Positions 29,070-59,366 of a stretch of DNA of 64,000 bases are shown one piece after another. The notes beneath the pieces were generated by a model. It was not told where the DNA came from and made no database searches. It worked only from the letters and a program-made list of their open reading frames with translations. The stretch is from Marsupella aquatica (Eukaryota; Plantae; Marchantiophyta). The stretch lies in contig OZ316893.1 of NCBI GenBank assembly GCA_973895155.1, forward strand, positions 620,860 through 684,859, given 5' to 3'. Positions within the stretch are counted from its first letter, which is position 1. Each line of letters starts with the position of its first letter. Position numbers and translations under genes: made by a program.

Positions 29070-29730
29070 ATACTCTCTATTGTAGCTAGTAAAATCATTG
29101 TAGTTCGTACACTATAGCTATTGTAGTCCGTACACTATAGTTAGTGGTAACCACTATAGCTCGTACACTATAGCTAGAGGAGTTACTGTTAGCAATTTAT
29201 ACACTATAGCTAGTGGAGCCACAGACTATAGATCGTACATTATAGCTAGTGGAATTATTTATTGTAGTTTGTACACTATAGCTAGTGAAGCTACTATAAT
29301 CCAAATGTTGGTGCTAGTGGAGCCAATGTAGTTTCTACACTGTAGCTAGTAGAGCGACTGTAGTGCGTATACTATAGCTAGTAGAGCAACTGTAGTGTGT
29401 ACACTATAGCTAGTGGAGCGACTATAGTGCATACATTGTAGCTAGTAAAGCTAGTGTAGTCCATATACGTACTGTAGCTAGTGGAGCTACTATAGATCGT
29501 AAACTATAGCTAGTGGAGCCACTCTAGTGCGTACACTATAGCTAGTGGAGCTATTGTAGTCCGTACACCATAGCTAATGGAGCCACTATAGATTGTACAT
29601 TGTAGCTAGCCGAAGCTACTATATATCATAAAATAAAGCTAGTGGAGCCTGAGAATGGAGCTACTATAGTTCATACACTGTAACTAGTGGAGCTACTACT
29701 GACAATCCATACACTATAGCTAGTGAACTT
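29070..29730. repeat. Tandem minisatellite, ~33-bp unit gtacactatagctagtggagccactatagt
   Basis: About 19 degenerate copies rich in short palindromes (CTATAG, CTAG, AGCT). Confidence 0.9.
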
Positions 29731-39123: not shown

Positions 39124-39689
39124 GGGGTCGTGTACTTCATCAGTTATCAGTGAGTTTCATCAGTGACTGATATCAGTCCAACACCGGAACTCAGCAAATC
39201 AGCTGAGATGAATTCTTCTGGGGCACAACCCAATCGCAGTCCGCGCCATTGTCGGCGCCTCTTTGAGGTTGGATCGGGTACTTTACTTCGACCATTTCTT
39301 ATGTCGGCTGCCTCTCTGACATTAAAGGAGAATATAAAGTTTCAATCTTGGCGGCCTCTCTGAGATTTCCTCGAAGTTCAGTTGAATCTCAGCGAGCCCC
39401 GCCGAGATTCAACTGAAATTCGAGGAAAAAAAAAACTTCTCACACAGGGTCTTCGATATATCATGGGGTGTCGCTACTAAATCTCAAAAAGGATCCATAC
39501 AACACATCGTACAACAGAGTCCATACTCATCTCAAAGACCCTCGCCGACTTATCCAGGAGAACAACACGGGGTCCAGCGTAGAAAGTAACCTTTGGAGGA
39601 AATTTTTATTTTACTTCGTATACAACATGTTGCTCTGTTGTGAAATATTCACAAATTGAATTCACAAAGGCAATCCATCGATCCTCTAT

Positions 39690-40945
39690 CTACAAACTGA
39701 TCGTCTGGCAGATTAGGTCTACAATAATCTTTTGTCGTATAAGCAGTACATGTTTAGGGTCAACCGCCAATACAGAGCCTCTAGAAAGACGCTCCATGTA
39801 CATTATGACATATACTCCACAATTGTAACTATCGGGTTGGGCTGGAATATCGTCGCGGACGATGCGTTGCCATTGTAATGGCGATAAGTGGGGACAACTG
39901 CGCAAGCGGGACAGGTCATGGAGAAACCGACCGACATTCACCAAATCGTCGCATTCCGATGCTTCGCCTCCAATGGGATCGAGCAAATGTAGTTGCTGCA
40001 AAGTAAAATCGACCACAGCTAGTACCCAATGTTTTGGCCTGTGGATGGGGATTATAATGAGGTCGAATGAAAAGACGTCAATGCCCTTCACAAATGCCAA
40101 CGCTGCGTTGAAGCTGTACGCAGGATGCGTCAAGACATTGTAAAAATGTGTGGGCAAAAGCATGCATTTGGGTTTTGCAATGACCTCTGCTCTACGCTCC
40201 AATAGAGGAATGTAAGCATTGATGATGTCACAAGTGAGCCATTTTTTTGCCCTCAAGCATTTGAAATCTTTTCTCTTCAATTTTAAGTCGCCGAGGCTGA
40301 CTAGGACTTCATCTTGGTCCCTGTTGGAGTCCAATGCTTCTTTGACTATGGTCGCAAGTATGGCGGGTTGATGTCGTTGTGCAGGCACCCCCTGATTCGG
40401 TCGTTGGTGCACAGGCACCCCCTGATCGACTCCTTGCTGGGCAGTCACTACCTCGTCGACTGGTTGTTGTGGCTCAGTTTGCTTCTGAGCTGCAATGAAG
40501 GTAAATTCACCCAAAAATTACTCTTCGGAATTGGAGCTTGACAAACTTATGCTTGCATGGTGAGTTTGGAGACTATCACTATCACTTCCTACCGAGCTAC
40601 TCTCATCCGATTCAGTCTCTTCTGCCCTATCATCGACAAATTTGAGAGTCTTCCTTGTTCTCTCTTTCACAAAATGAGCAACTCTTTCTTCATGATACGT
40701 ATCAGCGTAGCACGGTAGGCTTGACTTCTCCGGAGAGAATAATGCCAAAGCTTCCTCCCAAGCGAGCTTCACAAGTCGTCTGTCCTGTGTGTCCCATTCC
40801 TCGGTTGCCGACTCGGTGGTCCTGTCGGGAACTGCTACTAAGTTATACTTAAATCGAATCATGTATTGCGCCGGAATAGACGGATCACAAGAACGAATTT
40901 GTGAGGCGATGTGGACACCCCAGATAATCCATTGAGTCGCCTTTT
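39690..40945 (-). pseudogene. Ulp1/SENP-like C48 cysteine protease
   Basis: WLTCDIINAY, THFY, IIPIHRPKHWVL, LLDP and QPDSYNCGVYV give an intact His/Asp/Gln/Cys set. ORFs 40518-40862 and 39690-40514 are in frame across one TAA. The 5' boundary is uncertain, and this may be the last exon of the upstream gene. Confidence 0.9.
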
Positions 40946-41059
40946 GAGATAGATCTCAGAGAGGCTAGCCAAGATGTATTTTTGTCCCTCCAGACGCATC
41001 TAAGGCCCTACGTGGACTTGCCAGTAGAAGTTGACGTGGCCAGGCCACCCGGGATTCAT

Positions 41060-41500
41060 TTGTGCGAGGCCCGCCGACATGCATCTCAGAGAGGCCCGCT
41101 GAGATGGACTTGCCTGGAAATCTGAATATGCCCGGGCCAGATGCGATTCCTCTCGGCGAGGCCCACCGACATGCATCTCGGAGAGGCCAGCCGAGATGGA
41201 CTTGCCTGGAAATCTGAATATGCCCGGGCCAGATGCGATTCCTCTCAGCGAGGCCCGCCGATGTGCATCTCGGAGAGGCCAGCCGAGATGGACTTGCCTG
41301 GAAATCTGAATATGCCCGGGCCAGATGCGATTCCTCTCGGCAAGGCCCGCCGACATGCATCTCGGAGAGGCCAGCTGAGAGGGACTTTCCAGCAAATCTC
41401 AAAGTGCCCGGGCCAGATGCGATCCTCTCGGCTAGGCCGGCCGACATGCATCTCGGAGAGATCAGCCGAGATGGATTTGCCCAGATGGAGAGCCATCTCG
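41060..41500. repeat. ~5 copies of a 92-bp tandem unit with palindromic motifs
   Basis: gcatctcggagaggcc recurs at 41081, 41173, 41265, 41357 and about 41447. Confidence 0.92.
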
Positions 41501-41565
41501 GAGAGTCCACTGAAATACTATGGGACAATATTAAAATCATTGAAGGGAAACGGTAGTAAACTCAC

Positions 41566-44500
41566 ATGAAGGCTTTTTATTCTTGCGCTTTTCTGGATTG
41601 GATTTTCGACGATCCACTGCCTCCTCTTGCTCCGTTAGAGGCACTCCAACGAACTCTGTCATCGTGTCTTCCGCATAAGATTTGAAGTACGGATAGGATT
41701 CGGTCCCAAAGACCATCCGCCCACAGTTCTCACCAGCCTTAAAGATAGCCCCGAAGTGTGCATTGAACGTGACAACAGTTCCCCCTGGCTTAGTTGTATA
41801 TTCTATTATACATTGGAGTGTAGCTGGAGACAAGGTGCCACCAAAATCATCAATGGTCTCATTCTGACCCGTTGTATAGTTAGTTAGCCCGTTCCTCAAC
41901 TTCATATCAAGCTCGACACTGATTGGCTTCACGTCATCCTTTGGGCATACCTCGGCAGACGATTTAAATCCCCAAAGGTCTAGCTTGAGATATTCACTCT
42001 AGACGTACAGAACAAAGTCAGTGATGAGTCTTTCTGAGTACAAGTCACCGAAAGAACATAAGACAAGAATGGAGTTAAATCTATTAGACTTACCCGCTTT
42101 CGAGTCGTGAAGTCGAAGGTGGGTGTGGCGTTCCAGATGAAAAAGGTGTCTTTCAGCACCCAATTGGTCTCTTCGTAATTGAGACTGTCACAAAGTACTG
42201 CGGGGTGGGCAACCGAAGCACTATGCACTATGCCAAACAATCCCTCATCATCGAGGAAAACTCGCACAAAATCCTCAACCCGACTGAGGTCGTCTGGCCG
42301 GAACAAATTCCACAATGGGATGTTCCCATCCGCGTGCATGCGGGTGTCTGATCCCATTTGAATCAGAATCAGATTTGCACCAGACCTTGCAGGCTTCCCG
42401 TTCTTTAGCCAGCCTTCTGCAGCCAAACCACCCCGCCTAAGCTTTCTGCACCAGTCTCTAAAACGGAGTACCACAGCCGGTTCTTTACTGTCATTGGCAG
42501 CGTCAAAGTAAGTTTTGAAAAGATACGGAGACCATTTAAAATAACAATGCCTGAGCGGGGAAGAAAAGTTATCGGCGCTTGAACGCCGAACTCCAACCAC
42601 TTCTGTGCCATCCGACTTCGGTTTGCCTTCAACGTCCTCTTCGTAATTTGGGCCATCCGTTGGGGCCTCATGTTGGATTGTCGTGGGTGGAACCTCTATT
42701 GGGCTGGGCGGGGGTTGTGGTATGGTGCTAGGCGGGGGTTGCTCTATGGGGCTGGGCGGAATGTCTTCAAGCTCAGTGTCACGTGCTTTTGCGCGGTGAG
42801 GTTTGGGCCTCGTTGTTTTGGTCTTTTTTGCAGCCTTTGTCTTTGGCCTTGAGGATAATGGCATCCGTTTTGGCGCCGGAGTATCAGACTCACGCCCCTC
42901 TTGTTTGTCTTCTCCTTCGTCCTCTACCCGTTCGTCTTCTCCTTTGTCCTCTACCCGTTCATCTTCTCCTTCGTTATCTACCCGTACGTCATCTGAATGA
43001 TCCCCTCCTTGGGTTGCGTTCTCTCCCTGGGATGCGTCATGCTCTTGTTCCTGCTCGCTTTGTTGGTCCAGAGGCTGGTCTACCATTGGCTCTGTCGAAG
43101 GCTGCACGGTTTGTTGCTCCACTTGCTGGTTGCCTTGTTGTAGTGTAGCCGGCTCTATCGTTGGTTCTGCAGTTGGTTCTGTAGCCGACTCTATTGTTGG
43201 CTGTGGAGCCTTCTCTATAATTGGCTTTGAAGCCACTTCTACAGCCTTGCTTTTTACAGAACCTGGTTCCTCCGGTATCTCCTTCATACCTGGATAGATT
43301 GCAAAGCAATGGGGTTATTGATCCCAAGCTTCTCCGCGAGCCTCGCCGACATGACATCCAGACACTTGACATTATACTTCATCTGCAAAGGTCCGGACGA
43401 CATTTGGCTATTCTTCTCAGCGAGCCTCGCCGAGATGAGATCCAAGGGTTCGGACGAGATGCGACTGAAACTTGTTTGTTCTCAACGAGCCTCGCCGAGA
43501 TGAGATGCAGTCTATCTCAACGACCCCAAAATTGGTTCAGTACTATGTTAGCAAACCCAGCCAAGATGTAGTTCCAAATGAAACCACTATGCAGTGCGAA
43601 AGGAATCGAGTAATACCTGATGTTTTTCTTGGACTGGTTAGCGAGTCAGACTGACTGATGTCGCTCGATGGTTCCTTCTCAACCTTCCGTTCACCTTCTT
43701 TTCTGGCCTTCTTCCCGTCATAGGCAGGGTCAGTTGGGATAAGGGTCTCCACCTCTGTTGCCTCCGTTACTGAATCTGACAGTTGTCGCAACTTTGTTAT
43801 ATCGTAGTAATTACTAGGTTCCTGTGCTTCTTTGAGCAGGTCTGCACTATCCTTCTCGACAACCTCGAGAAAAGTGTTCCAATTGTCATACTCCATGTAC
43901 CATGGGCAGTTCCTCCGTTCCCAATCCGAGAATACTCTGCCATGAGGCATGCGACCATCACATGGATACATGCTAAGGCTACCTGTAGCCTCCATCCAAG
44001 ATCTAATCGCCAATGGTAGTTGTTTCAACATCGTTGCATTCATGTTCTCCTGATGTATGAGAAATCTTGTCACGCACCGCTTTGTTCGCTTAATCCACGC
44101 TTCCCGAAACGCCAATTTGGTATTCCCTTCATTCCAAATGTCACCGCCTACTTTTAAGGATTTCTCTTGCACATAAGATCGGTAAAGCTTTCTATAAAGC
44201 TCAGCAAATTCCTCTCGCGTTCCGCTAAAATTGCCAGGCTGGTAGGCCTTCTCAGCAAAATTGGTCAACAAGATACAACCAACATAGTCGATGTTACACT
44301 ACATTGACCACACTGCTAGCCATGATCTAACCACTGAATCACTATTGCTACGTGGATGGTGATACCTACTCCTATCTTCCTCCGTTCCAAAATGAGCCTT
44401 CAAGAGTTTTAATCTGCACTCTGCAGTTAACCAAGCCCCAGAAAACAAGCGGATCCGATCCAATCCAACCTGCACATTCATGACACCCTGCTTGGCCTCC

Positions 44501-45776
44501 TTTGCCAACTTGTGATAGAGCTGTCGATATGCCGGGATGAATTCCAAACCATTGGCTGGATTCACGCAGGCTGCGAGCTTGGGGAACTTAGTGTCCCAGC
44601 TCTTGCACGCAGCAGTAATCATTGCCTCAGTCTCATGCTCAAGTCTCTTGGCATTCCACGGGTGCCCATGACCTGCGTCTTGTGCCATTCCTTCGAAATA
44701 TTGATTCGCCCCGCTTCAATGTTTGACCAGCTCATGATGTACACAGCTGCCTCTTTTGTCATGTTCTTGGAGTACCAAGTCTTCCCGTGGCCACAATTTC
44801 GAGCCTTGAGGAAACCCTCCAACGTCTCCTTGGACATAAGCGAACTGTACTCCTCCAATGGAGTGTTCAACAGCTTCGCCACCCAATCGGCGTCATTGAA
44901 CCATGACGTCCTCATGACAGTCGCGCTTATCCTGGACACGGCAAAGAATGTTCTTAGGTCTAACATTCAAACAGGGCAATCTTTGACAGATTGCCAATAG
45001 GGTATTCACACAAGGGAAACGATATTGTATACCTGTTGTTGCAAAATATGAGTTACTTACGAGTTCAGAGCGTGCATTGCTTGCTCAACCTTCTTGAATC
45101 CGTCCTTTCCAGCGTTCAAAAGAGAGAATCTGACACACGGATGGTACTGCGGTTGATCTGGAAACTCCTCCGCAACTGCAGACCAAGCTGTGTACCTATG
45201 GTTTCCGTCAAAAACCCAAAACATCTTGTCCTTGAGCATTTTGAAGTCCTCTGACACATCGCACTCTTGCTCAAACTGCTCATTGATTTCAGTCCACAGC
45301 GAGTCCCAATAGGGCTTGAACTCTGCCACTGTCCTCGTCTCCCCTGCTTCATTGAACTCAATGATGTGGAACTCGCTGAGCTTTACAACATAGCCGCTCT
45401 CTCTGAATCCTTTTTTTAGTTTGACCACTGACTCATCATGAAGATTCCTGACGGCCTCCATTGGCATGAGCCGGCATAAGGGGATCCGGGGAGGATCCTT
45501 TTCAAACTTCGTCTCATACTTGGAGACGATCGACTCCCAAGCTCCCTTCTCTACAATATCTGCTAATTCCACTGCTCCTATTGGCTCGAACGATATTTGC
45601 TTTGGCTCAAACTTCCTCCTTGAGTCCACTGACTCCACAAGGGGACCACCTTGTGAGCGTGTTAGTCGAGATGTCACTGGCAAAGGGGACAAAGACCGTT
45701 GTTTCTTACTCCGCTGAGAAGTTCCGCTATCAACAGGTCCAGCGACAGAACCAGCCGAGTCTTTCCTCTTCGCCAT
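41566..45776 (-). pseudogene. Spliced gene: ParB/Srx-like N-terminal domain, helical region, acidic/Pro-rich linker and beta-class N6A/N4C DNA methyltransferase-like domain
   Basis: Phase-compatible exons 45776-45061, 44931-43617, 43289-42094 and 41998-41566. ParB-like: IPLCRL..VR..VVKLKKGF..GY...FWVFDGNHRYTAW. MTase-like: ANLILIQMG (motif IV position), FLDDEG, SEYLKL, LSPATLQCIIEYTTKPGGTVVTFNAHFGAIFKAGENCGRMVFGTESYPYF (motifs X/I/II). There is one frameshift near 44710 and a TAG at 44299-44301. Confidence 0.72.
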
Positions 45777-46324
45777 TGTGATCTAAGATTACATGAGAAA
45801 ACATTCAAGAATTACTTCACAATAACCATACATCTCGGTGAGCCCCGCCGAGCAAAAGTTTTGACATGTCGAGCTTGCAACATACATTCAAATCGTGTAG
45901 ACAGTCATGCAGTGAACAAAAGATCCAACCTCAGAGATGGGTGAAGCGCCGCGCTTGAAACTACAACCCGCTAAGAGTGATTCGACCACCGCCGACTGAG
46001 ACCTTCAAATCACCCTTTGCAGCACAAAGCTTGAAACTTCGAGAGTCGACCGCTGCCAAGCTCAAACCAAACTGAGACCTTCAAATCACCTTTGCCAACC
46101 AGCACAGAGCTTGAAACTACGAGACTCGACCGCCGCCAAGGTGAAGCCTTCAAAACACCTTCGCAAACCAGGGCACACGACCACACTTGCCGAGAATAAG
46201 TGGAAGAGAGGAAAGCCAACGTGATTGGAAGACTGGGACGAAGAGCGGAGGGGACCTAGGAAGAGCGAGGATGCGTGAGGAATAACGGGGAGTGAATGAG
46301 ACGGGGAGTGAATGATGAAGAGTG

Positions 46325-46710
46325 AGGAAGCGCAGGGATAAGTGAGAACGACGTTGAAAGCCCTAACGAAGCGTGAAGAGCAAGAGTGACGAGGAAGAGT
46401 AAGGAAGAAGGACCCTCGTACCGCACGTACCGCACCGGTGACGAGGAAGAGTAAGGAAGGACCCTCGTACTGCACGTACCGCACTGCACGGAAGTACTCC
46501 ATGGATACGAGAGATCCCCGGTACCGCACCGCACACAAGTACATGGATACGGGAGATCCAAACTATACTAGAGAATGTACATCTTGTTAATTAACGGGCC
46601 AAACAAGAAAGTACGCGGCCAAACAAGAAAGTACGTAAGGTTCTAGGGTTTACGGCCCAGTACGGGGGTATGAGATTTAGGGTCCAAATCTCAAAGACCC
46701 TCGCCAACAA
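46325..46710 (-). promoter_or_regulatory. Promoter/5'UTR block upstream of the ParB-MTase gene, duplicated in inverted orientation at 53760-54057
   Basis: aagcgcagggataagtgagaa...gtaccgcacgtaccgcac...catggatacggga...aaacaagaaagtacg...tacggcccagta matches the reverse complement of 53760-54057. It contains telobox-like (TAGGGTTT) and site II-like (GGCCCA) motifs. Confidence 0.65.
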
Positions 46711-47620
46711 TTAATTGCGGCCCATACTGAGACGTGTCAACATCTTAGAGCCTCGTCCCAAAGAGGGAATGGGGGCCCACAATACGAGTCCAAATCTCAA
46801 AGACCCTCGCTGAGAATGGATAGCGGGCCAATACTGAGACGTGTCAACATCTCGGAGCCTCGTCCCAAAGAGGGAATGGGGGCCCATAATACGAGTCCAA
46901 ATCTCAAAGACCCTCGCCGAGAATGGATAGCGGGATTGACAAAGACCTCTAAACCCTAAACCTATATACCCTTGGGTGGGGTATACAAAGCTGCAGTGAG
47001 ACAGCACCGATAGATCTCGGAGACCCTCTCCGAGATGGCGTGGTGTGCCACATCTGGCAGTCATCCTATTTTGAGACACTCGCAAAAGAGGATTGTGGAC
47101 AAGGAAGTTGACAATCTAAATCCAAAAGACCCCTGCTCCATGTCAGAGACCCTCACCGACATAGAAAGGCGTGCCCCAAATGTCTTCACTTTATCTAGGA
47201 GATGAAGAACTTCAGACACCTTGTACTCTCGGAGACCCTCTTTGAGAAGGAGTAGTGTGCATGAAATGGCAATGCCTCTAAACTCTTGGACCATATCACG
47301 GGAGGAAAGGTAAGGCAGATCAGGCATCGTGTCTCTCAGAGACCCTCTCCGAGATGGAATTGAGAGGCACTAGTCCCCCACCGTGGGACCCAAGATGTCG
47401 GAGACCCTCGCCGAAATGGGACTATGGAACTAGAAATACTTCTCCGTACCATAAATCCATAAACTTTTTACAATTATCCGTACAAAATGACTCGGCAACT
47501 CCAAATTGGGCATTTTTTCCTCTACAATGCTCGAATATATCTCGGAGACCCTCGCCCAAATGGGATTATGGAACTAGAAACGCTTCTCCGTACCATGAAT
47601 CCAATTTTTTTTGCAAATAT
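46680..47620. repeat. Short tandem duplications (~107-bp and ~144-bp units) carrying the GACCCTCGCCGA motif
   Basis: gtccaaatctcaaagaccctcgc at 46682, 46788 and 46895. cggagaccctcgcc.aaatggga.tatggaactagaaa at about 47398 and 47543. Confidence 0.8.
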
Positions 47621-47769
47621 CCGTACATACCGGCGTTTTCTCTCTTTTACAATGCTCGAATATATCTCAGAGAGGCTCGCCGAGTATGATATGCACTCCA
47701 AACAACCGACACCAAACTCTGAAGTAGACCTGCGCCAAGGAGGCAATCTGGGAATCCTACATCCAAATC

Positions 47770-48440
47770 CATCTCAGAGACCCTCGCCGAGTAAGAGACG
47801 GAATCAAAAGTCGATGATGCTCCGACTCGGAGAGTCGATGTTGAACAGTCAATGTTGCAAAAACAACAAATCTTCTACTGAGAAACTCTCGCTTGCACAA
47901 GAGTGTGGGCCCCAGGTGTCCCGAATAGATCTCAGAGACCCTCGCCGAGTAGGAGTAGGGATAAAAAGTCGATGATGCTCCAACTCGGAGAGTCGATGTT
48001 GAACAGTCAATGTTGCAAAAACAACAAATCTCCTATTGAGAAACTCTCGCTTGCACAGGAGTGTGGGCCCCAGGTGTCCTGAATAGATCTCAGAGACCCT
48101 CGCCGAGTAGGAGTAGGGATAAAAAGTCGATGATGCTCCGACTCGGAGAGTCAATGTTGAACAGTCAATGTTGAAAAGTCAACAAATTTCCTACTGTGAA
48201 ACTCGAGCTTGCACAGGAGTGTGGGCCCCAGGAGTCCCAAATAGATCTCAGAGACCCTCGCCGAGTAGGAGTAGGGATAAAAAGTCGATGATGCTCCGAC
48301 TCGGAGAGTCGATGTTGAACAGTCAATGTTGAAAAGTCAACAAATTTCCTACTGTGAAACTCAAGCTTGCACAGGAGTGTGGGCCCCAAGAGTCCCGAAT
48401 AGATCTCAGAGACCCTCGCCGAGTAGTATGGATAAAAAGT
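47770..48440. repeat. ~4.3 copies of a 158-bp tandem unit
   Basis: atctcagagaccctcgccgagta at 47771, 47929, about 48087, 48244 and 48402. Confidence 0.92.
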
Positions 48441-48715
48441 TGATGTAGGGCAAAGAGGGGATCGGGCCCGCACGAGGGATTGTGGGCCCGCACGATGGGA
48501 CTTTCAAGACCACGACGTGCAGAATGTACCACATCCACACATTGCAGAAATGTACCTTCTTGGCGGCTGCTGGCAATTAGGTACCTTCTTTGTGGTACAA
48601 TTCTCGTCGTTGCGGGTCATATGCTCGTTCTACGCACGTTGTATCGTTATAAGTAGCGTTCCGGGTCATACGATTTCTCTACGCACGTTGTCCAGAACGG
48701 TATTCTTGGCCGTAA

Positions 48716-51700
48716 TTGGTACGTACAGGTGCGTTAACGCTGAGCCTCAAAGTTTGTCGTTTTAAGGGATGTCAGATCATTCCCTATGTGGATTCGGGAA
48801 ACATGGCCTCTCTTGTGATTATCACATCTTTAACGGGGGATGTAGTTGTTTTTCATAATTCTAACGTTGACATTGTCCGAGTGACTAAGGAACATGAAGT
48901 AGCGAGCCGTTTTGGTTTGAAGGTAGGGGATTTCATGATTTATGAGGAGAGCGAGGACGGGTTGTCCACGTCTGCTGAATCCAAAGGAGATGGAGATGAG
49001 CGAGAGTGGTACCTGAAGTATGGCGCGTGTTATATTCTCTGTAGAAAGACGGGGTGCATACCAAGTGCACACCATGTCAAAGAGGGTCTCCGACATGAAG
49101 AACCTTCTCGGACGAGTACCCCTCGGTCGAATTCATTTCGAATGTGGGAGGATCGCGGAGATGGTGATACTCCACCAAAGGAGACACCTCGATCCAGTGG
49201 GATTCATGTCAGAGGGGGTCTTCGAGATGGTGAACCTTCACCAATGAATACACCTCAGTCAAACACATCCCAATTCTGGGAGGATCGTGGAGCTTGTTAT
49301 CGTCAACCAAAGGAGACACCTCGTTCAAAGGCATCCATCCTCCGTGAGGGTCTCCAAGATGGTGATTCGGTATGGAAGGATGAGTTCCTTGTCAGTGTTG
49401 TTCATGCCATGTTGCACGGAAAAGGGACCTCTCGTTGTGTACAAGCTGCTCGTAAGATTTTGAGCATGAAATTGCCCGAGAGAGTTCTACGATTGCCAGA
49501 ATTCTATGATGGAGACCATATTTTTGAGTTGCCACCCTTTACTGGTCCATACTCTAAGGGTTGTTTCTTCTTTGGGATGGAGCGCAAGAACGATTGTTAC
49601 ATGTGGAGCCGGTTAATTGAGATGGGAGCAAACATTGGCCCAAAGCTGAACAACAATAGTCACTCGTACAAGATCCAAAGCGTCAAGTGTTTGGGTTCTC
49701 TGCGATGTCTGCATGAGGATTGTGAAAATTTTCAACAACGACAAGAGCACAATTCTGCAAAGTGGACCCAAGATCGAGCAGGCACAAATGAGCTACCTTT
49801 CCCTGTTGGACGCGATGTTCCCCCGTCGAGTGTAATTTGTACGTACTGCAAGAGGCCTCCCAGGTGTATAGCTCGATGCCCAAGTGAGATGTACTATATC
49901 ACTCCAACCAAGGATGACGTGAATTATTGTCACAAGTCTCGTGTTGCGATGCATATAGGAAATCACACCCATCCTGCAATGTTCACGCATAACAAGGATC
50001 AACGATCAGTTGTGCACAATCTTGTGGAGGTGGAGCTGAAGAGGAGTCCGACTGCTATGCCGTCTGTTATCAAGGGCGAGGCAATACAGAAACTTAAAGA
50101 TATCCTTGAAGACCCAGTGGCTGAAATGGTGACATCTGAGGAGGCAAGAGACCTTAATGAAATGTTGTCCATCCTCGGTGATGAATCCATTTTTCGCTCT
50201 ATGATCAGGAGCATCAAGAAGTACAGTCATGTGTCGTCTGATCTTAACATGATACTGGAGATGCGGAAGGTGACTGCCTTTTCGTTTATCCAAAGTGTTT
50301 TGTTCCCATCCCAGAACGTGGGAACAGACGAGCGACCACACATTTTTAAAATGAGTACAGAAGGTCCTGGTTCCGGGGTGGACCTTGTTCGAAGAATGCA
50401 GCCAGGCGGGGATCTCGAGCATTCATGGGTGATGTCTGATGTGATGCATCGTATACTTGACAACAAATGGTGCACCATGTCAGCACACGTGTATGACCAT
50501 TTCTATCGGGGCCTGTGCACAATCTTTGTTTGTGAGTTGGTTTCAGAAGATAGTGCGGCATTACAAACTGCATGGAAGGTCATGAGGAGGGTGTGTGGAG
50601 AACATGGGCTTATCAATGTTGAATTTTGTGGCCTTATGGCTGATAATGCTGCTGCTGGGTGGAATGCAATCTGCAATGAATTTTGGGATGGAAAGGTAAA
50701 TACCCATAGAGAGAGGTCTGATGCATTTCACTGGGCCCAATCAGTGGAGAGGGTGCAGAAGCACATTGTCCCACAGAAGAGATTTGAGCATAAGGAAATT
50801 CTAGATTTGCTTCGACATGCCGACAACATAGTTCTCGCATTTCGAGTTTTTGAGAAGCTTAAGACGTGGTGGAGCGAGGGCAACGCGCTACCCGGAAAAG
50901 CGAAGGAGCTCACAACGTGGATGTCTTGGTGGATTGTTCGGTTTTCTCAATGGGGAAATTTTTTGAGACTCGTAAGTGTCTAACGCTTTTCCTCTATATG
51001 CATGAAATCCGTCAAATCTCGGCGAAGCTTGCTGACATGGGGTCAGTTGAAGGGATGTTCAATTGGACGACCTCTATCTGTAACGCTTTCTGTCAAATAT
51101 CGGCAGCGGTCGCCGAGATATGTTTCCAATTGTATTGACATTCTTCTTGGAAATTGTAGGAGATGGACAGAGAAAAGGCTGCGCTGATGCCTAACCACAG
51201 CGGGGCAGAGTCGGTGCATGCGGTCATGCGGAAATGGTCCTCTAATAGAAAGGTTGGGTTAGTACAGTCCTGTAACTTAGATGCAACTTGAGCATTGAGC
51301 CAGGTTGCATCTTTGGAGCACTACCAACACAGTGGGAGGAAAGGGCGGGGACCGAGCCTATTTGAACTCCGACTTCGAGACGCTACTGCTGTTGGGAATG
51401 TGGAATCTTTCTTTTCAAAATTGAACACAGTTATAACTCAACCAGAATTGCGTAAGTTCTCGTCAGCGGACCCACTTAGCGGAGATGTAGAAACGGTTTC
51501 TATGAAGCGCGGGAAGGCCGTATCTGGCGCTCATATGGTAGTAGAAGATTCACACAGGCCTGACATTGTTCTGGTAACGAGACCAAAGAAGAGGAAGTTC
51601 AAGGGGGTTGCAAACAGGGACGCAACCTTAAAAAGCACAGATCCTGAAGTTGTGGATCTGTCTTCTGATGGGGGTAGTGGCTCGGGCGAGCCTGAAGTTG

Positions 51701-52638
51701 TCATTGTGGAACCTCTCCAACGGACGACAAGGTCAACCCCACGTCCGGAGCCCGTCAGAAGACATGTTTAGGAAACTGATTTGGTGCCAGGGACGTTATT
51801 TCTGGCCCGCATCTCAACATGTCGTAAGAGTCCCGGTTGTAGAGGTGCGTTCAAAGGCAAGGAACGGGGAGTATGTGCTCGATTTATTAGAGAGGCAGGA
51901 TTGAAAGTGAGCGGATTGGGTGTTGTTGGTATTTGTTGGCTGGCGGGGAGTAAATTTAATGAACCAGGTGTTCCATATCCGTATTGGTTTTGTCCGAACA
52001 ACCAGTGTTGCAGAAAATCCTCTTTGCCTTTCATTACCGGCGTGCTACCACCACTGCCTTCAAAGTTTCCGGTCTCTCGTGGTACTAATCTTACAGAAGC
52101 AGAGGTTATTTTCCTGCACAACAATGGAGTGGATGTCATTTCTGGTGGTGATGTTATGAATGAGGTAGTGAGTGCTGGCGACATCATCATGGATTTGAAC
52201 ACATACCCAGAGCGGCCAGATCCTACAAGGCCTGACGATCGTGGTACTCGCCGCAATGGCCAGGCAAGGCGAAGGAGGTCAGACCCCCCCAAGGATGCAT
52301 TAGCACGTATCCAAAATGCTAAGACCGAGGCCATTGTGTGCACGTCAATGAGGAGAATTGAAACAGGGAATGCTACCGGCATAAGGCTCATGGTGAACAA
52401 CACTAGCAGGGGGCGAACTTCAGTACATTGCGTCCAGATCTGTGTCTTCCCAAGTTGCTCCTGCAAGGATTTCATGTATAGGGAGTCGATGGGAAGAGCC
52501 TACTTCCCGTGCAAGCACTTGTACTGGTGCTTTGCAAACATCTGTAAAAGGGACATTGACACGGATCAATGTGTAAACCAACCTATCTTGACTCTAACTG
52601 AGGTCCGCGGCCTTGTAGCAAATACCAATATCGTCTGA
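48716..52638 (+). pseudogene. Mutator-like transposase: GCM/WRKY-like zinc domain, MULE DDE core and SWIM zinc finger
   Basis: KCLGSLRC..C...CTYC..C...HIGNHTHP (GCM-like). WVMSD, FCGLMADNAAAGWNA, FHWAQS and, after a phase-0 intron at 50972-51159, GAESVHA (third catalytic E). SWIM: CSCKDF...CKHL. In-frame stops TGA at 51289 and TAG at 51769. The real start may be the ATG near 48803. Confidence 0.85.
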
Positions 52639-52644
52639 CATTGT

Positions 52645-52802
52645 ATGTCGGCGACCCTCGCTAACATTGTCTCCTTCTTCAGGAGATCATCTTGGCGACC
52701 CTCGCCGTGTCATCTAATCTTGGCGACCCTCACCGAGTCATCTAATCTTGGCGACCCTCGCCGACGTAACTCCTGAGTCATCTTGGTGACCCTTGCCGAC
52801 AT
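52645..52802. repeat. Cluster of ~5 TCTTGGCGACCCTCGCCGA palindromes just after the transposase stop
   Basis: Read directly from the sequence. Confidence 0.85.
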
Positions 52803-52880
52803 GGACTTCAGGGTTGCGGGCCTAGGGTTAGGGGGTTAGGGTTTATAATATGACCGTTATAAGTATAGAATTACGGATTT

Positions 52881-53610
52881 ATGTTGGCGAGGCTCAGATT
52901 CGACCCTAAACCCGCTTGGGTCCTTGGGATGAGGGTTGTTGCTTTGTTCGAAACTATGGATCCTAGTGCAGGCGGACGTGAGATGGTGATTGATAGGACA
53001 CAAGAAAGGCTTACATCGGAATTGCAGACGCTTCTTGCTAGTAAAGAACAAGACCGTGCTCGCATCTGGAATCTCCCCTCCTCTCGTTATCCCCTACGAT
53101 GTCGCCCTCCAGCCGGTAACTTGATTCCGGGATTGCCTGATGATCTTGTGGAGTTGCACATATGGCCCCGGATCCGATCAATGTTGGAAGATGTTGTGCT
53201 TGTGGATGCTCCAGTGAGGAATATGTGCCTGATGGTGCGGTCTGTTGCGCATATCAACAGGAAATGGAGATATTTGATAACAAACTCCATAGCATGGGCT
53301 GCAATGACTACTGCTATGATATTTTGTGCCACGAGATGACCTGAATTGACACCTCACTTCTTTCGTGAGTCAATGAGAGCGTTCCCCACCGATTGATGTT
53401 TGGGCTCGGTTGGCTGATGATATCTTAAATAAGAGGATCAATTCCTGGTTATTATGTGATTCGGAGGAAGTGGACTGTTATCTGTCGATATGGTGTTCAG
53501 CAAGAACGAGTAGATGCTTGGAAAAGGACTCGTCTTGATAATTGGTACATTGAGCAGGTTCAGGAAAGACTTGATCAAGGTGTAAGTGTCAATCGTGACA
53601 ACTTTTAGGT
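52881..53610 (+). pseudogene. F-box-like protein 1 (disrupted)
   Basis: LIPGLPDDLVELHIWPRI...VAHINRKWRYLI resembles a plant F-box motif. Stops appear after 53339. Confidence 0.6.
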
Positions 53611-54158
53611 GCACTTCATGTCATTATCGGTTTAGTGTATAGAATACGCAGGAGTACGCCACACCTGGTTCAGATTTAGAGATCATGGACTAATTTTGTA
53701 CGACTTTTTTGAGTAATAAATACTTGGCGACATGAGATCCTTCCTATCTTTCACTATCAATTCTCGGCAAGGGTCTTTGACATTTGGACCGTTTAGGGTT
53801 TACCCTAAACCCTAAACACGTACCCCCTATACTGGGCCGTAAATCCTAGACCCTTGCATACTTCCCTTGCGTACTTTCTTGTTTGGTCCGTTAACAAGAT
53901 GTACGTTGTCAAGTATAGTTGGGATGTCCCGTATCCATGACATAGTTTTGTGCGGTGCGGTACGTGCGGTACGTGCTCCCTTCTTCCTTACTCTTCCTCT
54001 TCCTCTTCACTCTTTGTTAGGGTTTTCAACGTCCTTCTCACTTATCCCTGCGCTTGGTTGAATTTCTACACTTTGACATTCATCGCACTGGGCAGAAATG
54101 ACATCGCTGTTCATTTCTTAGGGAGAGCCTCCCCACGAAGGCAGACGTTCTACGCCCG

Positions 54159-55100
54159 TTGCTCGACCGGCGCGCAGCCCCTACAAGGTCAAGATCAACC
54201 CGCAGACTTTGCAGGTGGAGACCGTCGAAACCAATATGTCAATATCGCTGTCGTTATAAAGAGGAGGGCACTTTCTCTATTCTTCATCCGCTTGTTTGGT
54301 TGGTTGGTTGTTGTGTTCAATCTGTTGGGTGTCATCTTCATCTCACGGGTGCTTCAAGCGGCTAAACTTGCTTCAAGCGGCTCTCCAACATGGAAGGATC
54401 ATACACGAAGAGGCGTTATCATGAAAAGTGCGCTACACGCCTTGATAAGTTTACGGCGACAATTATTGAGCTGAAATTGAAAGCTAATTTTGATCGGCTC
54501 TCAATATGGGGGACTGTTGGGGAGCCTATTCCGGAGGAAGCAGAAGAAGCAAAAAAGCAGAGTCTCATCCCTGGCCTCCCGGATATGCTGACAGGGGGAC
54601 ATGTTTGGCCTCTACTTAGAAATGCATTTGAGTCTGCAAATGCACATGGCACTGATGATGATGCTACCTTCAAGACGATCGACAATATGCGCATATTGTC
54701 CAGAGTTAGTAGGAAATGGAGATTCCTTGTGACTCACTCCAAGGGATGGGCAGCGTTAAAAGTGGTGAAGGACGTCATTGAAAACATGGATGACAACCGA
54801 CATTGGAATTGTCACTCAACCGCGTGTACGTTCCGTGTTCTCTTACGATAAATTCCGCCTATTGATGCCCTCTCTATGATGTCAGTTACATCACTCAAGT
54901 CTTGGGTGGCAAACTACGTCTGGAGGACGGAGATATATGAGAGGGATCTGTATGATAAGTTCTTCGATGGAGATGTGCTAGGAAGAGTCCAGGACTGGGT
55001 GGAGAACAGGTTAACCCCAATCTTATGGTGTGACAATGTAGAAAAATTGCCGAGCAACAATCCGGACAGTGGCTACGGGCTTTATTCTAGTGATATTTGA
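54159..55100 (+). pseudogene. F-box-like protein 2 (paralog of gene 1)
   Basis: LIPGLPDMLTGGHVWPLL...LSRVSRKWRFLV..SKGWAAL. ORFs starting at 54159, 54390 and 54876 share one frame, separated by single TAA stops. Confidence 0.6.
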
Positions 55101-55403
55101 CTGTGAAGGCACAGGAGGTCATCGCGGATAGCATTGTCGATAGGGTCCACTAGCCACTAGGTCATGTCATGACTTGAACTCATCACGTAGTAATGAGGTT
55201 AGGGGTAGCATCATGGACTAATTTTGTACGACATTTTTCAATAATAAAAAAGCTTACGTTATCGTACTATTGGTATGGTCTTTTTTCCCTCCCGGCGGCC
55301 TCGCCGACATCCAAACGGCACCGTTGGAATTCGGCAAGGGTCTCCAAGATGTAGTGTTCATGAACGCTACTCACCTTGGAGACATTCGCCATTTGTCGGA
55401 TCT

Positions 55404-56180
55404 GAGCGACCCTCGCCGAAATGGCACTGAAACCGGATGTCAGCGACCCTCGCCGGAATGGGACTGAAACCAGATGTCAGCGACCCTCGCCAAAATGGCA
55501 CTGAAACCAGATGTCAGCGACCCTCGCCGAAATGGCACTAAAACCGGATGTCAACGACCCTCGCCGAAATGGCACTGAAACCGGATGTCAGCGACCCTCG
55601 CCGAAATGGCACTGAAACCGGATGTCAGCGACCCTCGCCAAAATGGCACTGAAACCGGATGTCAGCGACCCTCGCCGGAATGGGACTGAAACCAGATGTC
55701 AGTGACCCTCACCGGAATGGCACTAAAACCGGATGTCAACGACCCTCACCGAAATGGCACTGAAACTGGATGTTAGCGACCCTCGCCGAAATGGCACTGA
55801 AACCGGATGTCAGCGACCCTCGCCGAAATGGCACTGAAACCGGATGTCAGCGACCCTCGCCGGAATGGGACTGAAACCAGATGTCAGTGACCCTCGCCGA
55901 AATGGCACTGAAACCGGATGTCAGCGACCCTCGCCGGAATGGCACTAAAACCGGATGTCAACGACCCTCGCCGAAATGGCACTGAAACCGGATGTCAGCG
56001 ACGCTCGCCGAAATGGCACTGAAACCAGATGTAGTGACCCTCGCCGGAATGGAACTTCGCAGGAATGAAACTTTGTCGGAATGGAACTTCCCAACCGGAT
56101 GTCTGCGATCCTCGCCGAAATTGCACTTACCAAGAAAAAGTAAGAAACCGGATCTCAGAGACCCTCGCCGAAATGGAACT
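55404..56180. repeat. ~17-18 near-identical copies of a 37-bp unit GTCAGCGACCCTCGCCGAAATGGCACTGAAACCGGAT plus degenerate copies
   Basis: The period is 37 bp (for example 55441 to 55478). Confidence 0.95.
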
Positions 56181-56591
56181 TAGGATCATAATTTTGATCG
56201 TTGCCGAGTGAGAGAACCACCAGATCTCGGAGACCCTCTCCGAGATCTACTTACACCCTAAACTCTTTGTCGTCAAACTAACAAAGAAGTCGCTGGCCTC
56301 TGATCTCAGAGATCCTTGCCGAAATGGGATTACGTAGTAACTGTGGAATCATACGCTCATACAGTGCCAAAAACTAATCCTGACAGTCAACCGTTGTAGG
56401 TCAAATCAACATTAACTCATTTGTTGGCCAAACCTGGAGTGTGTGTGAAAAGACATGTACCCGTTATTACGAGCGGACGTTGTTGTCCCTTCAACCGTCT
56501 AGGGATAGGATACCAATAATTGCTGGATTTTTAGTGGCAATGATGATGATTGTCTTGTACGTTGCAGGTCACCACAACACGGACTAGATAG

Positions 56592-57470
56592 ATGGAGGTG
56601 AAGGCAATGTGGCAGTGCGGTGCGCCCTACAATTTTTCACCTTCTTTCTCATCAGGGCAGAGCACCATGGCCAGAGTGGAGTCTGTGATCGGTGTCCAAG
56701 ACAGGCACACACCCACTGTCTCCGCCGTTTTGGACGTCGTCCCGCAGAAGAGGAAACGAGGTCGGCCGAGGAAGCATCCCATCATAATATCGATAGCGTT
56801 ACCTGATAATGAAGCTCCTCGGCTCTTGACAGAGAAGAGGAAACGAGGTCGGCCAAGGAAGCATCCCATCGTAATGTCGATCGCGTTACCTGATAATGAA
56901 GCTCCTCGGCTCTTGACAGAGAAGAGGAAACGAGGTCGGCCGAGGAAGCATCCCATCGTAATGTCAATCGCGTTACCTGATAATGAAGCTCCTCGGCTCT
57001 TGGCAGAGAAGAGGAAACGAGGTCGCCCCAGGAAGCATCCTATTGCAATGGCTACCACACTGCCAGACGGTGATGGTGAAGCTCCTCGTCTGTTGAGATC
57101 TACAGATAATCGCAAGGCTGTTGGTGATTCAAACAGAATGAACTAGACGTTGAAGATGCCCGTAGACGGTGCAGCTAAGTTTCGCGGTCGTGACAACACA
57201 ACCAGCCACAAGGACTCGCCTAGTGCCGAGTGTTCAAAATATGCTGATGTTGACTTCGTGTTTGCTAAAGAGTTGCTGAAGAGTTTGGATGCAGAGATCG
57301 CGGACAGCAAGTCAGACTTCCAGAAGCTTATGAGCCTTCATGTAGATGTGCAGGCTAGGCTATCTGAGATGTGTGACAACGTCCAGAATCTATGGGTAAA
57401 AATGAATGACCTCCTCTCAGCAAGAGCTGAATTGGGGGCGTTCACTGGAGTGAATGTACAAAAAACATGA
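56592..57470 (+). pseudogene. AT-hook repeat protein with C-terminal coiled coil
   Basis: Four KRKRGRPRKHP AT-hooks sit in 87-bp (29-aa) tandem repeats. ORF 57150-57470 continues in frame after the TAG at 57144-57146. Confidence 0.8.
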
Positions 57471-58250
57471 ATTTCGTGTACACATTTACTTGTAGGAAAT
57501 AGCGGAACGTTGTAGCCTCAAAGTTTTGATACATTTTGGTAGTTACTGAATCGTTCGTCGGTAATGATTTTATGGAGTGTCAAATTAAACTGGACGATGA
57601 TAGTAGAAATCCATCTAATCGGCTGTGTAATCCAGATCTTATGAAACATTTTGTGCAGATTAGGCAGTTTAGTTATACATTACTGAATCTATCGTGGTAA
57701 AGTCGGCGACCCTCGCCGAGAGCATTTTCCTCGGCTTGACAAGTAGGAGTAGCAGTCTCTTGACGATGTCTTCTCGGCGAGCATCGCCAAGGAATGACAA
57801 TGAATTCATGCTACCTTTTCTTATAAGCTCTCTTATTGGGCAAACATCTTGATCTTCTGGTGATCGCAACTGATCCCAAGGATTCTACACTGCATCACAA
57901 TTCTCGTTGATTACTTCTTTCAAGGCTGGCATCACCAGCAGCCTAGTAGTAGTATCTCGATGATGTCTTCTCGGCGAGCATCACCGACGAATTACAATAT
58001 ATGGGTTGTAAAATGTTTTTCTAGTAAACATCATGTCGACCTTATGTCGGCGACCTCTTTGACATTCTGGCTATGGTCGCCTAAAATTGTACGGACACCG
58101 CCTTTATGCTTATTGCTTTGCGTTTCAAGACCGTAAACCCTGAATCAGAGATGTTTGCGAGTTTGCCGAGATCCCCGGGCCAATCTGAGCACAGTCGCCG
58201 ACATGCAGGTAAGTGTTAAGCGCGACGAGCAATGACTGATACCTTTACTC

Positions 58251-59366
58251 TCACATTTGTGAAACAGTTCCAATTTGACTGTACTAGGAACCTCTGTCTC
58301 CAATATACCTACAGCAAAAGAAATTAGTGTAAGTATTTCGAAATGAATATAAAGGTTGTAAGTGTTGGACTTTTTAACATCCTGGGAATATCTACACAGA
58401 CAAAGAGCAGTTAAATTCAACTGGAGGGGAGTAATTGCAGTTTAAATCTCACCTAGATCATTCGGACCAATAACAGGAAGAATAGCCAGCAAAGCGTGAC
58501 CTTCTGGCAAACTTCTAAGACTGCAATTAATATTGCCAATTGTCATGACTAAAGGCCAACCCTGAGTTCTCTTGTTGTGAGACAAGGCAGTCTGATCAGA
58601 ATACAAAATGATGGGTGCAATCACTCCTCCTTTGCAAGTAGATTCAACGTCTTGCTCCATTTCCCTCCACCACTCAGCGGATTGTAAAGTAGTGTATAAT
58701 CTCTCACTGTTCTCTCACTGCCCTCTATAGCAACTGAAGAGTGAAGTGCAAACTCTTCTTTATTTTTAGGAGAAGAAAATAGATCTTCCAAAACACGTAA
58801 TGGATCACGATGCAACAAATGAACTGGAGCACTTTTAGTCTCCTCGCGGACTTCAACCTTTTCCCAATTTTGGTCACCCCTCTCACTTGTTAAACTTTCC
58901 TCATATTTACAAACCTCAGCAGCAGTATGAACCTGGACTTTTTTGGTATCGAATTGAGGGTGGTGCAGCAGCCGAAATAATCTGTTCATATCTTTGTGAG
59001 ATAATCCTCCTCCATTGTGGCATTGTCTCATAAAGAAGACAAGTTGAAAGGTAACATCAATTTTTTATTACAGTGGGCAGGAGATGTGAATTCATTCTCA
59101 AACAGGTCCATGAATTCCTCAGAGGATTGCTCTCCAACTGTCTCAACATTGGCCTGTATAGATTCCGGTATACATGTGTTCCCAACGTTTACACTCGTAC
59201 GAAACCCTTCATGCTCTGCCTCCATCACATGATCAGTCTGTTTAGCCCTTTGCACAGCTCTCTATTTTGCTAAGCAAAGTCCATTTTGTCCTTGGTGGGT
59301 CCGCAAAGCTGTATAATCCAGAAATCCCAAAGCTCCACAAAAATTACACTTAAAGTTTGAAGCCAT
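58251..59366 (-). pseudogene. Plavaka-type transposase, 5' part
   Basis: ATG at 59366 begins MASNFKCNFCG..LRTHQ (zinc-finger-like). Further motifs are HRDPLRVLEDLF and IAPIILYSDQTALS...GWPLVMTIGNI. An intron spans about 58452-58309, and exon GILETEVPSTVKLELFHKC is cut by the MULE TSD. Confidence 0.85.

What the first reader, a model, noticed from the sequence alone, without database searches (positions are those of the whole stretch)
39124..58250. Giant TIR-less Mutator-like transposon carrying a multi-gene chromatin and protein-modification toolkit
Seen: a 19,127-bp insertion bounded by an exact 9-bp TSD (TCACATTTG). Its ends (GGGGTCGTGTACTTCATCAG... and ...CTGATACCTTTACTC) are not inverted repeats. 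It encodes a GCM-like/MULE/SWIM transposase, a divergently transcribed ParB-MTase-like gene, a Ulp1 protease, two F-box-like genes and an AT-hook gene, separated by motif-bearing tandem arrays. Established: TSDs of about 9 bp, SWIM fingers and Ulp1 cargo are MULE traits. Arabidopsis VANDAL MULEs lack long TIRs and encode a sequence-specific anti-silencing protein (VANC) that binds motifs in their own tandem repeats. Inference: this is a convergent VANDAL-like self-protecting system in a non-seed plant, with a cargo set I do not recognise as described.
Basis: partly seen in the sequence, partly recalled or inferred. Interest (0 to 1): 0.92.

Follow-up and report, generated by a model that had tools for sequence, protein, structure and literature searches.

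The report
Giant moss transposon with ParB palindromes
A 19-kb jumping gene, probably from a moss, carries dozens of copies of one palindromic DNA motif and a gene for a protein shaped like the bacterial DNA clamp ParB, likely joined to a dead DNA methylase, which would let it recognise its own DNA and possibly escape silencing, an idea raised for algal transposons but not yet tested.

Summary
The insertion is real. It spans 19,127 bp, has an exact 9-bp TSD, and splits a Plavaka transposase exon that reopens when it is removed. The empty site is in 4 of 4 read sets, which also cover the whole element, cargo included. Related copies start at the same left base.

It is a non-TIR Mutator-like element. 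This copy is damaged. The divergent gene has a confirmed ParB/Sulfiredoxin fold and an N4/N6-methylase-like domain with decayed catalytic motifs; the Ulp1 exon may be fused to it. The array motif is a 25-bp palindrome at 68 sites, 64 of them non-coding. It recurs in intron 1 of two relatives that are 46-50% identical. CpG is not depleted (o/e 0.82, against 0.22-0.35 in the host Plavaka).

It is not a VANDAL: no VANC domain was found and the motif is of another type. The closest known cases are the ParB-methylase accessory genes of giant algal transposons (Ectocarpus Sola1-1, red-algal Plavaka/Mutator). The best model, untested, is a ParB/parS-like self-recognition system that protects the element. 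New here are the land-plant host, the MULE carrier, the pseudo-methylase and the Ulp1/F-box/AT-hook cargo.

The parts
39115..39123 (.). left copy of the 9-bp target-site duplication
58251..58259 (.). right copy of the 9-bp target-site duplication
39124..58250 (.). whole non-TIR Mutator-like element, 19,127 bp, inserted in a Plavaka transposase exon
39124..39180 (+). left terminus with four ATCAGT words; start base shared by other copies
58226..58250 (-). right terminus with one ATCAGTCA word; no long inverted repeat to the left end
39690..40484 (-). Ulp1/C48 SUMO-protease exon; His, Asp, Gln and Cys of the active site present; no Met before the domain, so it needs an upstream exon
   Evidence: (PF02902 7e-22)
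40593..40831 (-). predicted linker exon that could join the methylase-like exon to the Ulp1 exon in frame (no RNA evidence)
   Evidence: inference
41064..41481 (.). 92-bp tandem array, about two palindrome copies per unit, in the predicted intron 4
41566..43289 (-). exons 3-4 (43289-42094, 41998-41566): acidic linker and beta-class N4/N6-methylase-like domain; DPPY-type motif reads QMGS and the SAM-binding DxFxGxG-type motif is decayed (canonical motifs recalled)
43617..44931 (-). exon 2: helical region of unknown fold, 41% identical to a Calypogeia fissa protein; frameshift at 44687 and stop at 44299-44301 in this copy
45061..45776 (-). exon 1: ParB/Sulfiredoxin-fold domain with invariant DGNHR and a downstream Asn
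46328..46930 (-). promoter-like region of the ParB gene, duplicated in inverted form at 53754-54055; no TSD around the pair
46682..48445 (.). 107-bp and 158-bp tandem arrays plus dispersed palindrome copies between the divergent genes
48803..52638 (+). MULE-type transposase, two exons (48803-50971, 51160-52638), about 1215 aa: Cys/His-rich N-part, D-D-(DAFH)-E core, C-terminal SWIM; stops at 51289-51291 and 51769-51771 in this copy
52881..53560 (+). F-box-like gene 1 (no Pfam hit); other copies differ by indels at 53384 and 53487
53754..54055 (+). inverted duplicate of the ParB-gene promoter region, in front of F-box-like gene 2
54390..55097 (+). F-box-like gene 2 (PF00646 E 0.02-0.035), 31% identical to gene 1 over 106 aa; in-frame stop at 54849-54851
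55397..56056 (.). 37-bp tandem array, about 18 units, one palindrome copy per unit
56595..57467 (+). gene with four AT-hook repeats at 87-bp period and a coiled-coil-like tail; in-frame stop at 57144-57146
39387..57989 (.). 68 copies (up to 3 mismatches) of the palindrome, consensus CATCTCGGCGA-N3-TCGCCGAGATG; 64 of 68 outside coding exons

Best explanation
This is a damaged copy of a recently mobile 19-kb non-TIR Mutator-like transposon whose ParB-fold accessory protein likely binds the element's own palindromes, as ParB binds parS, and would thereby help keep the element from being silenced. Shown: the unit moved with a 9-bp TSD; its cargo is present in other copies; the accessory gene has a ParB fold and a methylase-like domain with decayed catalytic motifs; the palindrome fills introns, promoters and arrays of the element; the element keeps its CpG. 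Inferred: the accessory protein loads as a dimer on the palindromes and perhaps spreads as a nucleotide-gated clamp. Its methylase-like domain probably binds or shields DNA rather than methylating it. It brings the Ulp1 SUMO protease (fused or separate) to remove SUMO from silencing factors on the element, while the F-box-like and AT-hook proteins act as helpers. The transposase probably uses the short terminal ATCAGT words for cutting.
For: The ParB fold is firm: model pLDDT 79 from 17 sequences; 33 of the 34 Foldseek rows shown are ParB/Sulfiredoxin-type chains (ParB, Noc, KorB, PadC, Srx, serine kinase, SbnI; grouping them as one fold family is recalled), top CDP-bound ParB 6sdk at prob 1.00 but E 0.017; VIA top KorB Z 7.3, rmsd 2.7, 90 aligned. 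G159-N160-H161-R162 and N206 are invariant in 17 of 17 sequences, at the places of ParB's nucleotide-binding GxxR and EN motifs (recalled). The palindrome has 56 sites at up to 2 mismatches, against 0 in 10 simulations, 0 in 7400-39100 and 0 in 58260-64000; 64 of 68 sites are non-coding although exons make up 10.6 of 19.1 kb. It travels with the ParB gene: it lies in intron 1 of the 2 closest of 6 metagenome loci (L001, L002; 46-50% aa) and in none of the 4 distant ones. One distant locus (L004) instead has 8 copies of another palindrome with the same TCGG/CCGA half-sites (pattern chosen after seeing it). CpG o/e is 0.82 in the element and 0.76 in the host PPR gene, against 0.22-0.35 in the Plavaka it sits in, whose sisters in run X1 differ by only 6 letters in about 840, so copy age alone does not explain it. 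The same gene type and hypothesis are in print for algae.
Against: No binding, expression or methylation data exist for it. The site is 25 bp with a 3-bp spacer, longer than the 16-bp parS (recalled), and no helix-turn-helix was tested behind the ParB domain. A MULE transposase alone can bind its motifs and cause hypomethylation (AtMu1), and L001/L002 are too short to show which other genes lie beside the motif. High CpG could also come from recent horizontal arrival or from insertion in unmethylated DNA. Of 24 hand-picked sites where this copy has T/A and other copies C/G, 9 are in CG context (38% against 20% background), a weak hint that this copy has been methylated. A motif shared across 50%-diverged relatives differs from the fast arms-race pattern of VANC. 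The roles of Ulp1, F-box and AT-hook are guesses from domain names.
Confidence: 0.45

Rival explanations
1. The palindromes are binding sites for the transposase (through its Cys/His-rich N-terminal domain), which activates and synapses its own element; the ParB-methylase gene has another job.
For: AtMu1 transposase alone binds motifs and induces hypomethylation (10.64898/2026.08.24.746577, section 7). Three motif copies lie inside transposase exon 1.
Against: AtMu1 binds at its TIRs, whereas these sites are spread through introns and promoters of all genes, and a different short word (ATCAGT) marks the ends. The motif type changes with ParB divergence (L001/L002 against L004).
Confidence: 0.22
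2. The ParB-fold protein binds the palindromes, but as a transposition helper: it coats and condenses the 19-kb element so that two ends without long TIRs can be brought together. It has no anti-silencing role.
For: ParB bridges and condenses DNA around parS (recalled). The element is very long and lacks TIRs. Sites cover the whole length.
Against: It does not explain the retained methylase-like domain (60% identical in P0004), the SUMO protease, or the undepleted CpG.
Confidence: 0.2
3. The methylase domain is active after all and writes 4mC or 6mA on the element as a self mark, as proposed for algal elements.
For: The family belongs to the N4/N6 methylases (P0018: PF01555 E 3e-5, phrog_67 E 8e-9). 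4mC occurs in Marchantia sperm.
Against: The DPPY/SPPY-type motif reads QMGS here and is degenerate in 7 of the 8 aligned sequences, the best being DPPT. The SAM-binding motif is also decayed.
Confidence: 0.08
4. The cargo is passive or nested: a 7.7-kb core MULE bounded by the inner inverted repeats (46328-46930 / 53754-54055) sits among unrelated captured genes.
For: An inner inverted repeat of 66-89% identity flanks the transposase.
Against: No 7-10-bp duplication at its outer ends. No such joint among the 15 of 70 joints shown. One motif runs through all parts. X1 contigs over Ulp1, methylase, spacer and F-box 1 have similar depth (127-172).
Confidence: 0.05

Closest known systems
Sola1-1_Ec32 of Ectocarpus (PMC12477816; passages read)
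   Same: Giant (21.5 kb) DNA transposon with one accessory gene on the strand opposite the transposase, encoding a 1104-aa ParB-like + N4/N6 methyltransferase protein, proposed to bind and modify its own element. Here about 1220 aa to the end of the methylase-like exon.
   Different: Brown alga and Sola superfamily, against land plant and MULE. No palindrome array, Ulp1, F-box or AT-hook is mentioned in the passages read. The methylase motifs are decayed here. Direct homology was not tested.
Plavaka accessory genes PAG2/PAG3 of Bostrychia and other red algae, also on Chondrus Mutator elements (10.1101/2025.02.11.637652; section 8 and passages read)
   Same: 17-19-kb elements; ParB-domain gene with adjacent arrays of inverted repeats; PF01555 methylase gene; the genes move between transposon superfamilies, including giant Mutators; same self-binding hypothesis, untested.
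   Different: There ParB is fused to a 2OG oxygenase and the methylase to SET, in separate genes. Here ParB and a pseudo-methylase share one gene, possibly with Ulp1, and the palindrome is dispersed over the whole element.
VANDAL/VANC of Arabidopsis, including Ulp1-bearing KAONASHI (PMC5735166, PMC10398659, PMC13317346; passages read)
   Same: Non-TIR MULE, 9-bp TSD, multi-gene, Ulp1 cargo, motif in non-coding tandem arrays and introns.
   Different: VANC has DUF1985/DUF287 and binds a 9-bp non-palindromic, family-specific motif. Neither domain was found here, and the motif is a palindrome shared by 50%-diverged relatives.
Bacterial ParB/parS, Noc and KorB (structures 6sdk, 7ng0, 8qa8; mechanism recalled)
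   Same: Same N-terminal fold and placed motif residues; many palindromic sites on the replicon that encodes the protein.
   Different: Eukaryotic intron-containing transposon gene, no ParA, an insertion in the fold, a longer site; clamp activity not shown.
MpDN4MT1a/b of Marchantia (10.1101/2021.02.12.428880; passages read)
   Same: Bryophyte protein of the N4/N6 methylase class.
   Different: Host gene with an intact TSPPY motif and no extra domains (PMC8885841 passage); relationship to this family not tested.

Membership tests
Mutator/MULE superfamily | 8-11-bp target-site duplication | tested here: met
   exact 9 bp; range from PMC6446971
Mutator/MULE superfamily | MULE-type DDE transposase | tested here: met
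   Atlas best cluster 0.94, PF10551 on 61% of members, and all ten best named hits share the family or clan; D, D, DAFH, E motifs in order; Pfam itself gave no hit
Mutator/MULE superfamily | SWIM zinc finger | tested here: met
   CxC...CxH at 52456-52520; PF04434 only E 0.3
Mutator/MULE superfamily | long terminal inverted repeats (absent in non-TIR MULEs) | tested here: not met
   5 of 30 terminal bases match; fits the non-TIR type
Mutator/MULE superfamily | WRKY/GCM1-type N-terminal DNA-binding domain | tested here: inconclusive
   Cys/His pattern present; no Pfam or PDB hit; not folded
Mutator/MULE superfamily | placement in a MULE phylogeny | not testable with these tools
   no reference MULE sequences on hand; only 3 homologs found
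VANDAL | VANC anti-silencing protein with DUF1985/DUF287 | tested here: not met
   no such hit in 23 ORFs at E up to 0.05; domains named in PMC5735166
VANDAL | motif enriched in non-coding tandem arrays and introns | tested here: met
   64 of 68 sites non-coding
VANDAL | short non-palindromic motif specific to one family | tested here: not met
   25-bp palindrome, shared by L001 and L002
VANDAL | sequence-specific hypomethylation in trans | not testable with these tools
   needs a transgenic assay; only CpG o/e as a proxy
ParB-methylase accessory genes of giant algal transposons | N-terminal ParB-like domain | tested here: met
ParB-methylase accessory genes of giant algal transposons | N4/N6 methylase domain in the same gene | tested here: met
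   both halves match P0018 (E 5e-9, 4e-6), which hits PF01555; exon order supported by L002, P0006 and weakly L006; no RNA
ParB-methylase accessory genes of giant algal transposons | catalytic motifs of an active methylase | tested here: not met
   QMGS in place of the DPPY-type motif; SAM motif decayed (canonical motifs recalled)
ParB-methylase accessory genes of giant algal transposons | opposite strand to the transposase; inverted repeats beside the gene | tested here: met
ParB-methylase accessory genes of giant algal transposons | common descent with the algal proteins | not tested
   algal sequences were not among the hits and were not fetched
ParB/parS clamp systems | nucleotide-binding motifs in the N-domain | tested here: inconclusive
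   G, R and N invariant at the expected places (motif assignment recalled); no assay
ParB/parS clamp systems | dimer with a helix-turn-helix that reads the palindrome | not tested
Ulp1-carrying MULEs (KAONASHI type) | C48 protease domain with intact triad inside a non-TIR MULE | tested here: met
   PF02902 E 7e-22, His/Asp/Cys visible; common origin with KAONASHI not tested

The most novel reading that the evidence does not exclude
Bryophyte Mutator elements run a bacterial-style ParB/parS site-and-clamp system inside plant chromatin: a nucleotide-gated clamp loads on dozens of 25-bp palindromes, spreads over the 19-kb element, and carries a dead methylase and a SUMO protease to block silencing. 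This would be a second, unrelated origin of sequence-specific anti-silencing in land plants and a programmable epigenetic tool.
Probability: 0.25. Interest if true: 0.9.

Novelty: new variant of a known kind. Interest (0 to 1): 0.63.

Why it matters
VANDAL is described as the only transposon known to bind and modify its own sequence. ParB-type accessory genes on giant algal transposons are a published guess with no test. This element puts such a gene in a land plant that has CG methylation and transformable relatives (Physcomitrium, Marchantia). It gives a sharply defined 25-bp site that changes with the protein's divergence, and a sequence signature (undepleted CpG) that fits protection. The hypothesis becomes directly testable by one binding assay and one transgene. 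A pseudo-methylase and a possible Ulp1 fusion suggest a shielding or de-SUMOylating mechanism, not the DNA-writing one proposed for algae.

Tried and rejected
No whole genome is held, so full-length copies and their TSDs could not be listed. No RNA holder was listed, so splice models are untested. The transposase alignment found no relative in metagenome or viral contigs. The ParB alignment found none in viral contigs; its one hit in prokaryote genomes (L007) overlaps a PAS-kinase-like gene in another frame and was rejected. A search for longer ParB-exon homologs gave 0 of 755 candidates (weak evidence). The single-sequence ParB model was poor (pLDDT 42) and its fold search gave nothing. Profile searches of the PDB with the ParB, methylase and transposase alignments gave no significant hit. 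The palindrome matched 5 viral contigs, none with a related protein and mostly as single sites in GC-rich DNA: taken as chance. No Rfam family lies in the element. The nested TIR core was rejected (no TSD). A link to MpDN4MT1 was considered but not testable. Complex prediction of a ParB dimer was not available. Runs X5 and X6 hold only small shares (0.12, 0.07) and were laid on the left end only.


Full report
OBSERVATION. The 9-mer TCACATTTG flanks 39124-58250 exactly and occurs only once more in 64 kb. The flanks on both sides hit the Plavaka transposase family (PF18759). Removing the element and one TSD copy gives one open exon behind a GT-AG intron. The empty junction is in 4 of 4 runs laid. 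It may come from paralogous Plavaka copies, but in X1, X2 and X4 the contig runs 147-255 bases past the junction on its shorter side without a branch, so those samples show no filled site there. The ends are not inverted repeats (5 of 30 bases). Both begin with G and carry a short ATCAGT word.

OTHER COPIES. All 30 bins of the element are covered in each of 4 runs (2 studies). In X1, contigs of 450-1300 bases at about 99% identity cover Ulp1, the methylase part, exon 2, the spacer and F-box gene 1 at depths 127-172. One of them bridges the transposase end, F-box gene 1 and the next promoter. At the left end, 7 of the 28 piece rows shown (84 more hidden) start at 39123-39125, in X1, X3 and X5. 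By their record coordinates, six of these run on 23-3448 bases into other flanks. Their depths of 16-23 in X1, against 165-190 for the near-identical family, suggest roughly 8-10 close copies. This is an inference, since the tool warns that depth is no copy number. This copy is damaged. Other copies have an extra base at 44687 (3 of 4 runs) and no stop at 51769 (4 of 4 runs), and a liverwort homolog has Trp at the stop at 44299. Further stops lie at 51289, 54849 and 57144.

TRANSPOSASE. Two exons give about 1215 aa. Only 3 homologs were found, 58-67% identical and unnamed. Pfam is silent. The Atlas places residues 190-722 with MULE clusters (0.94), and the D, D, DAFH, E order and a SWIM pattern are visible. 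The 'GCM-like' label is not confirmed.

ACCESSORY GENE. Exon 1 has 16 homologs of 35-88% identity that all end at the same intron. Its model from 17 sequences (pLDDT 79) matches ParB, Noc, KorB and sulfiredoxin, although no Foldseek row reaches E 0.001 and the best Z is 7.3. The Atlas agrees (0.95) and also lists a fungal DUF3723 cluster (0.93, family on 31% of members). The methylase-like part has 16 hits among the representatives. These include proteins of the liverworts Riccia sorocarpa and Calypogeia fissa. One of them, P0018, hits PF01555 (E 3e-5), PHROG and PADLOC methylases and matches both window exons. The catalytic motif is QMGS here and is degenerate in 7 of 8 aligned sequences, so the domain is probably a pseudo-enzyme. 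L002 supports intron 1 and P0006 links exon 2 to the methylase part. L006 weakly shows ParB and methylase-like motifs on one strand (E 0.02-0.06). A six-exon GT-AG model that adds Ulp1 stays in frame (1564 codons), but the last two joints have no support beyond that.

THE MOTIF. The arrays of 28, 37, 92, 107 and 158 bp share one palindrome, consensus CATCTCGGCGA-N3-TCGCCGAGATG. It has 68 sites in the element, 64 of them non-coding (pattern drawn up by eye from the element). A strict pattern gives 42 matches in the window, 37 of them in the element, and 0 in 100 shuffles. The other sites lie in two arrays at 1827-2190 and 6789-7150, beside a second end with the same terminal words, likely a decayed sister element. 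Of 6 metagenome loci with ParB-exon homologs, the 2 closest carry the same palindrome in intron 1 and the 4 distant ones do not. L004 carries 8 copies of a shorter palindrome with the same outer half-sites (300 simulations: mean 1.1, max 4; pattern chosen after the fact).

METHYLATION PROXY. CpG o/e is 0.82 over the element and 0.70-0.83 in its genes, close to the host PPR gene (0.76). It is 0.22-0.35 in the Plavaka and 0.24-0.38 in other repeats. Against protection of this copy: 9 of 24 hand-picked C-to-T-type differences are at CG (background 20%), picked from the few rows shown of more than 1000.

MECHANISM. The best reading is a ParB/parS-like self-recognition system with an anti-silencing outcome (0.45). 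The rivals are transposase binding (0.22), a ParB helper for synapsis (0.2), an active methylase (0.08) and passive or nested cargo (0.05). Binding, activity and every cargo role are inferred.

HOST. It is a land plant, by its PLS-DYW PPR gene. It is probably a moss or other bryophyte, from the liverwort homologs and a recalled likeness of the PPR to moss proteins.

WHAT IS KNOWN. Ectocarpus Sola1-1_Ec32 has a ParB + N4/N6 methylase gene on the opposite strand (PMC12477816, passages). Red-algal Plavaka, and Chondrus Mutator elements, carry ParB and methylase accessory genes, with inverted-repeat arrays beside PAG3 (10.1101/2025.02.11.637652, section 8 and passages). VANDAL/VANC features come from passages of PMC5735166, PMC10398659, PMC13317346 and PMC6446971. 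AtMu1 comes from the abstract and section 7 of 10.64898/2026.08.24.746577. Passages of PMC4738411, PMC8885841, PMC5982333, PMC12973397, PMC6431247 and 10.1101/2021.02.12.428880 added no bryophyte case. Ten library searches found no land-plant transposon with a ParB gene. The library lacks most subscription papers, and Repbase and Dfam were not available. I opened no supplements; those of the two algal papers may list more hosts. Earlier AI notes of this scan report ParB-plus-palindrome transposons in other eukaryotes (27 findings in at least 8 genomes, 8 shown). They are unchecked leads, but they suggest the theme is recurrent, which lowers the surprise of this one case.

VERDICT. It is a new variant of a known but untested kind; interest 0.63.

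Noticed in passing
window 6789-7347 and 1827-2370: Likely decayed sister element: an end with the same terminal words as the main left end, arrays of the same palindrome with C-to-T decay, and a faint relic of the methylase-like gene (tblastn E 0.06), broken by CACTA-like ends at about 1801-1812 and 2474 and a LINE at 3205-5900.
   Followed up: partly
window 46328-46930 and 53754-54055: Inverted duplication of a promoter-like region with telobox and GGCCCA words (motif names recalled) that drives the ParB gene one way and F-box-like gene 2 the other.
   Followed up: partly
L004:1526-2234: Eight copies of a different 12-bp palindrome downstream of a distant ParB-like gene, sharing the TCGG/CCGA half-sites with another spacing.
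   Followed up: partly
window 49073-49360: Three palindrome copies inside a 132-bp repeat in transposase exon 1: the motif has entered coding DNA.
   Followed up: no
window 37254-39114 and 58260-59900: The host Plavaka element is itself young (near-identical sisters in the read sets) yet strongly CpG-depleted.
   Followed up: partly
window 39134-39137: Loose ends in runs X3 and X5 show sister families whose left ends begin differently, one like this element's right end, so the ends may be relics of a short inverted repeat.
   Followed up: no
window 23123-26935: Intact 1270-aa PLS-DYW PPR gene with seven 303-bp repeats, a likely organelle RNA-editing factor.
   Followed up: no
window 29097-29649: Tandem array of a 32-bp unit rich in CTATAG/GCTAG palindromes, unexplained.
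   Followed up: no
window 45061-45776: An Atlas neighbour of the ParB exon is a fungal DUF3723 cluster; DUF3723 is recalled as common cargo of giant Starship elements. One paper search for DUF3723 with ParB found nothing.
   Followed up: partly
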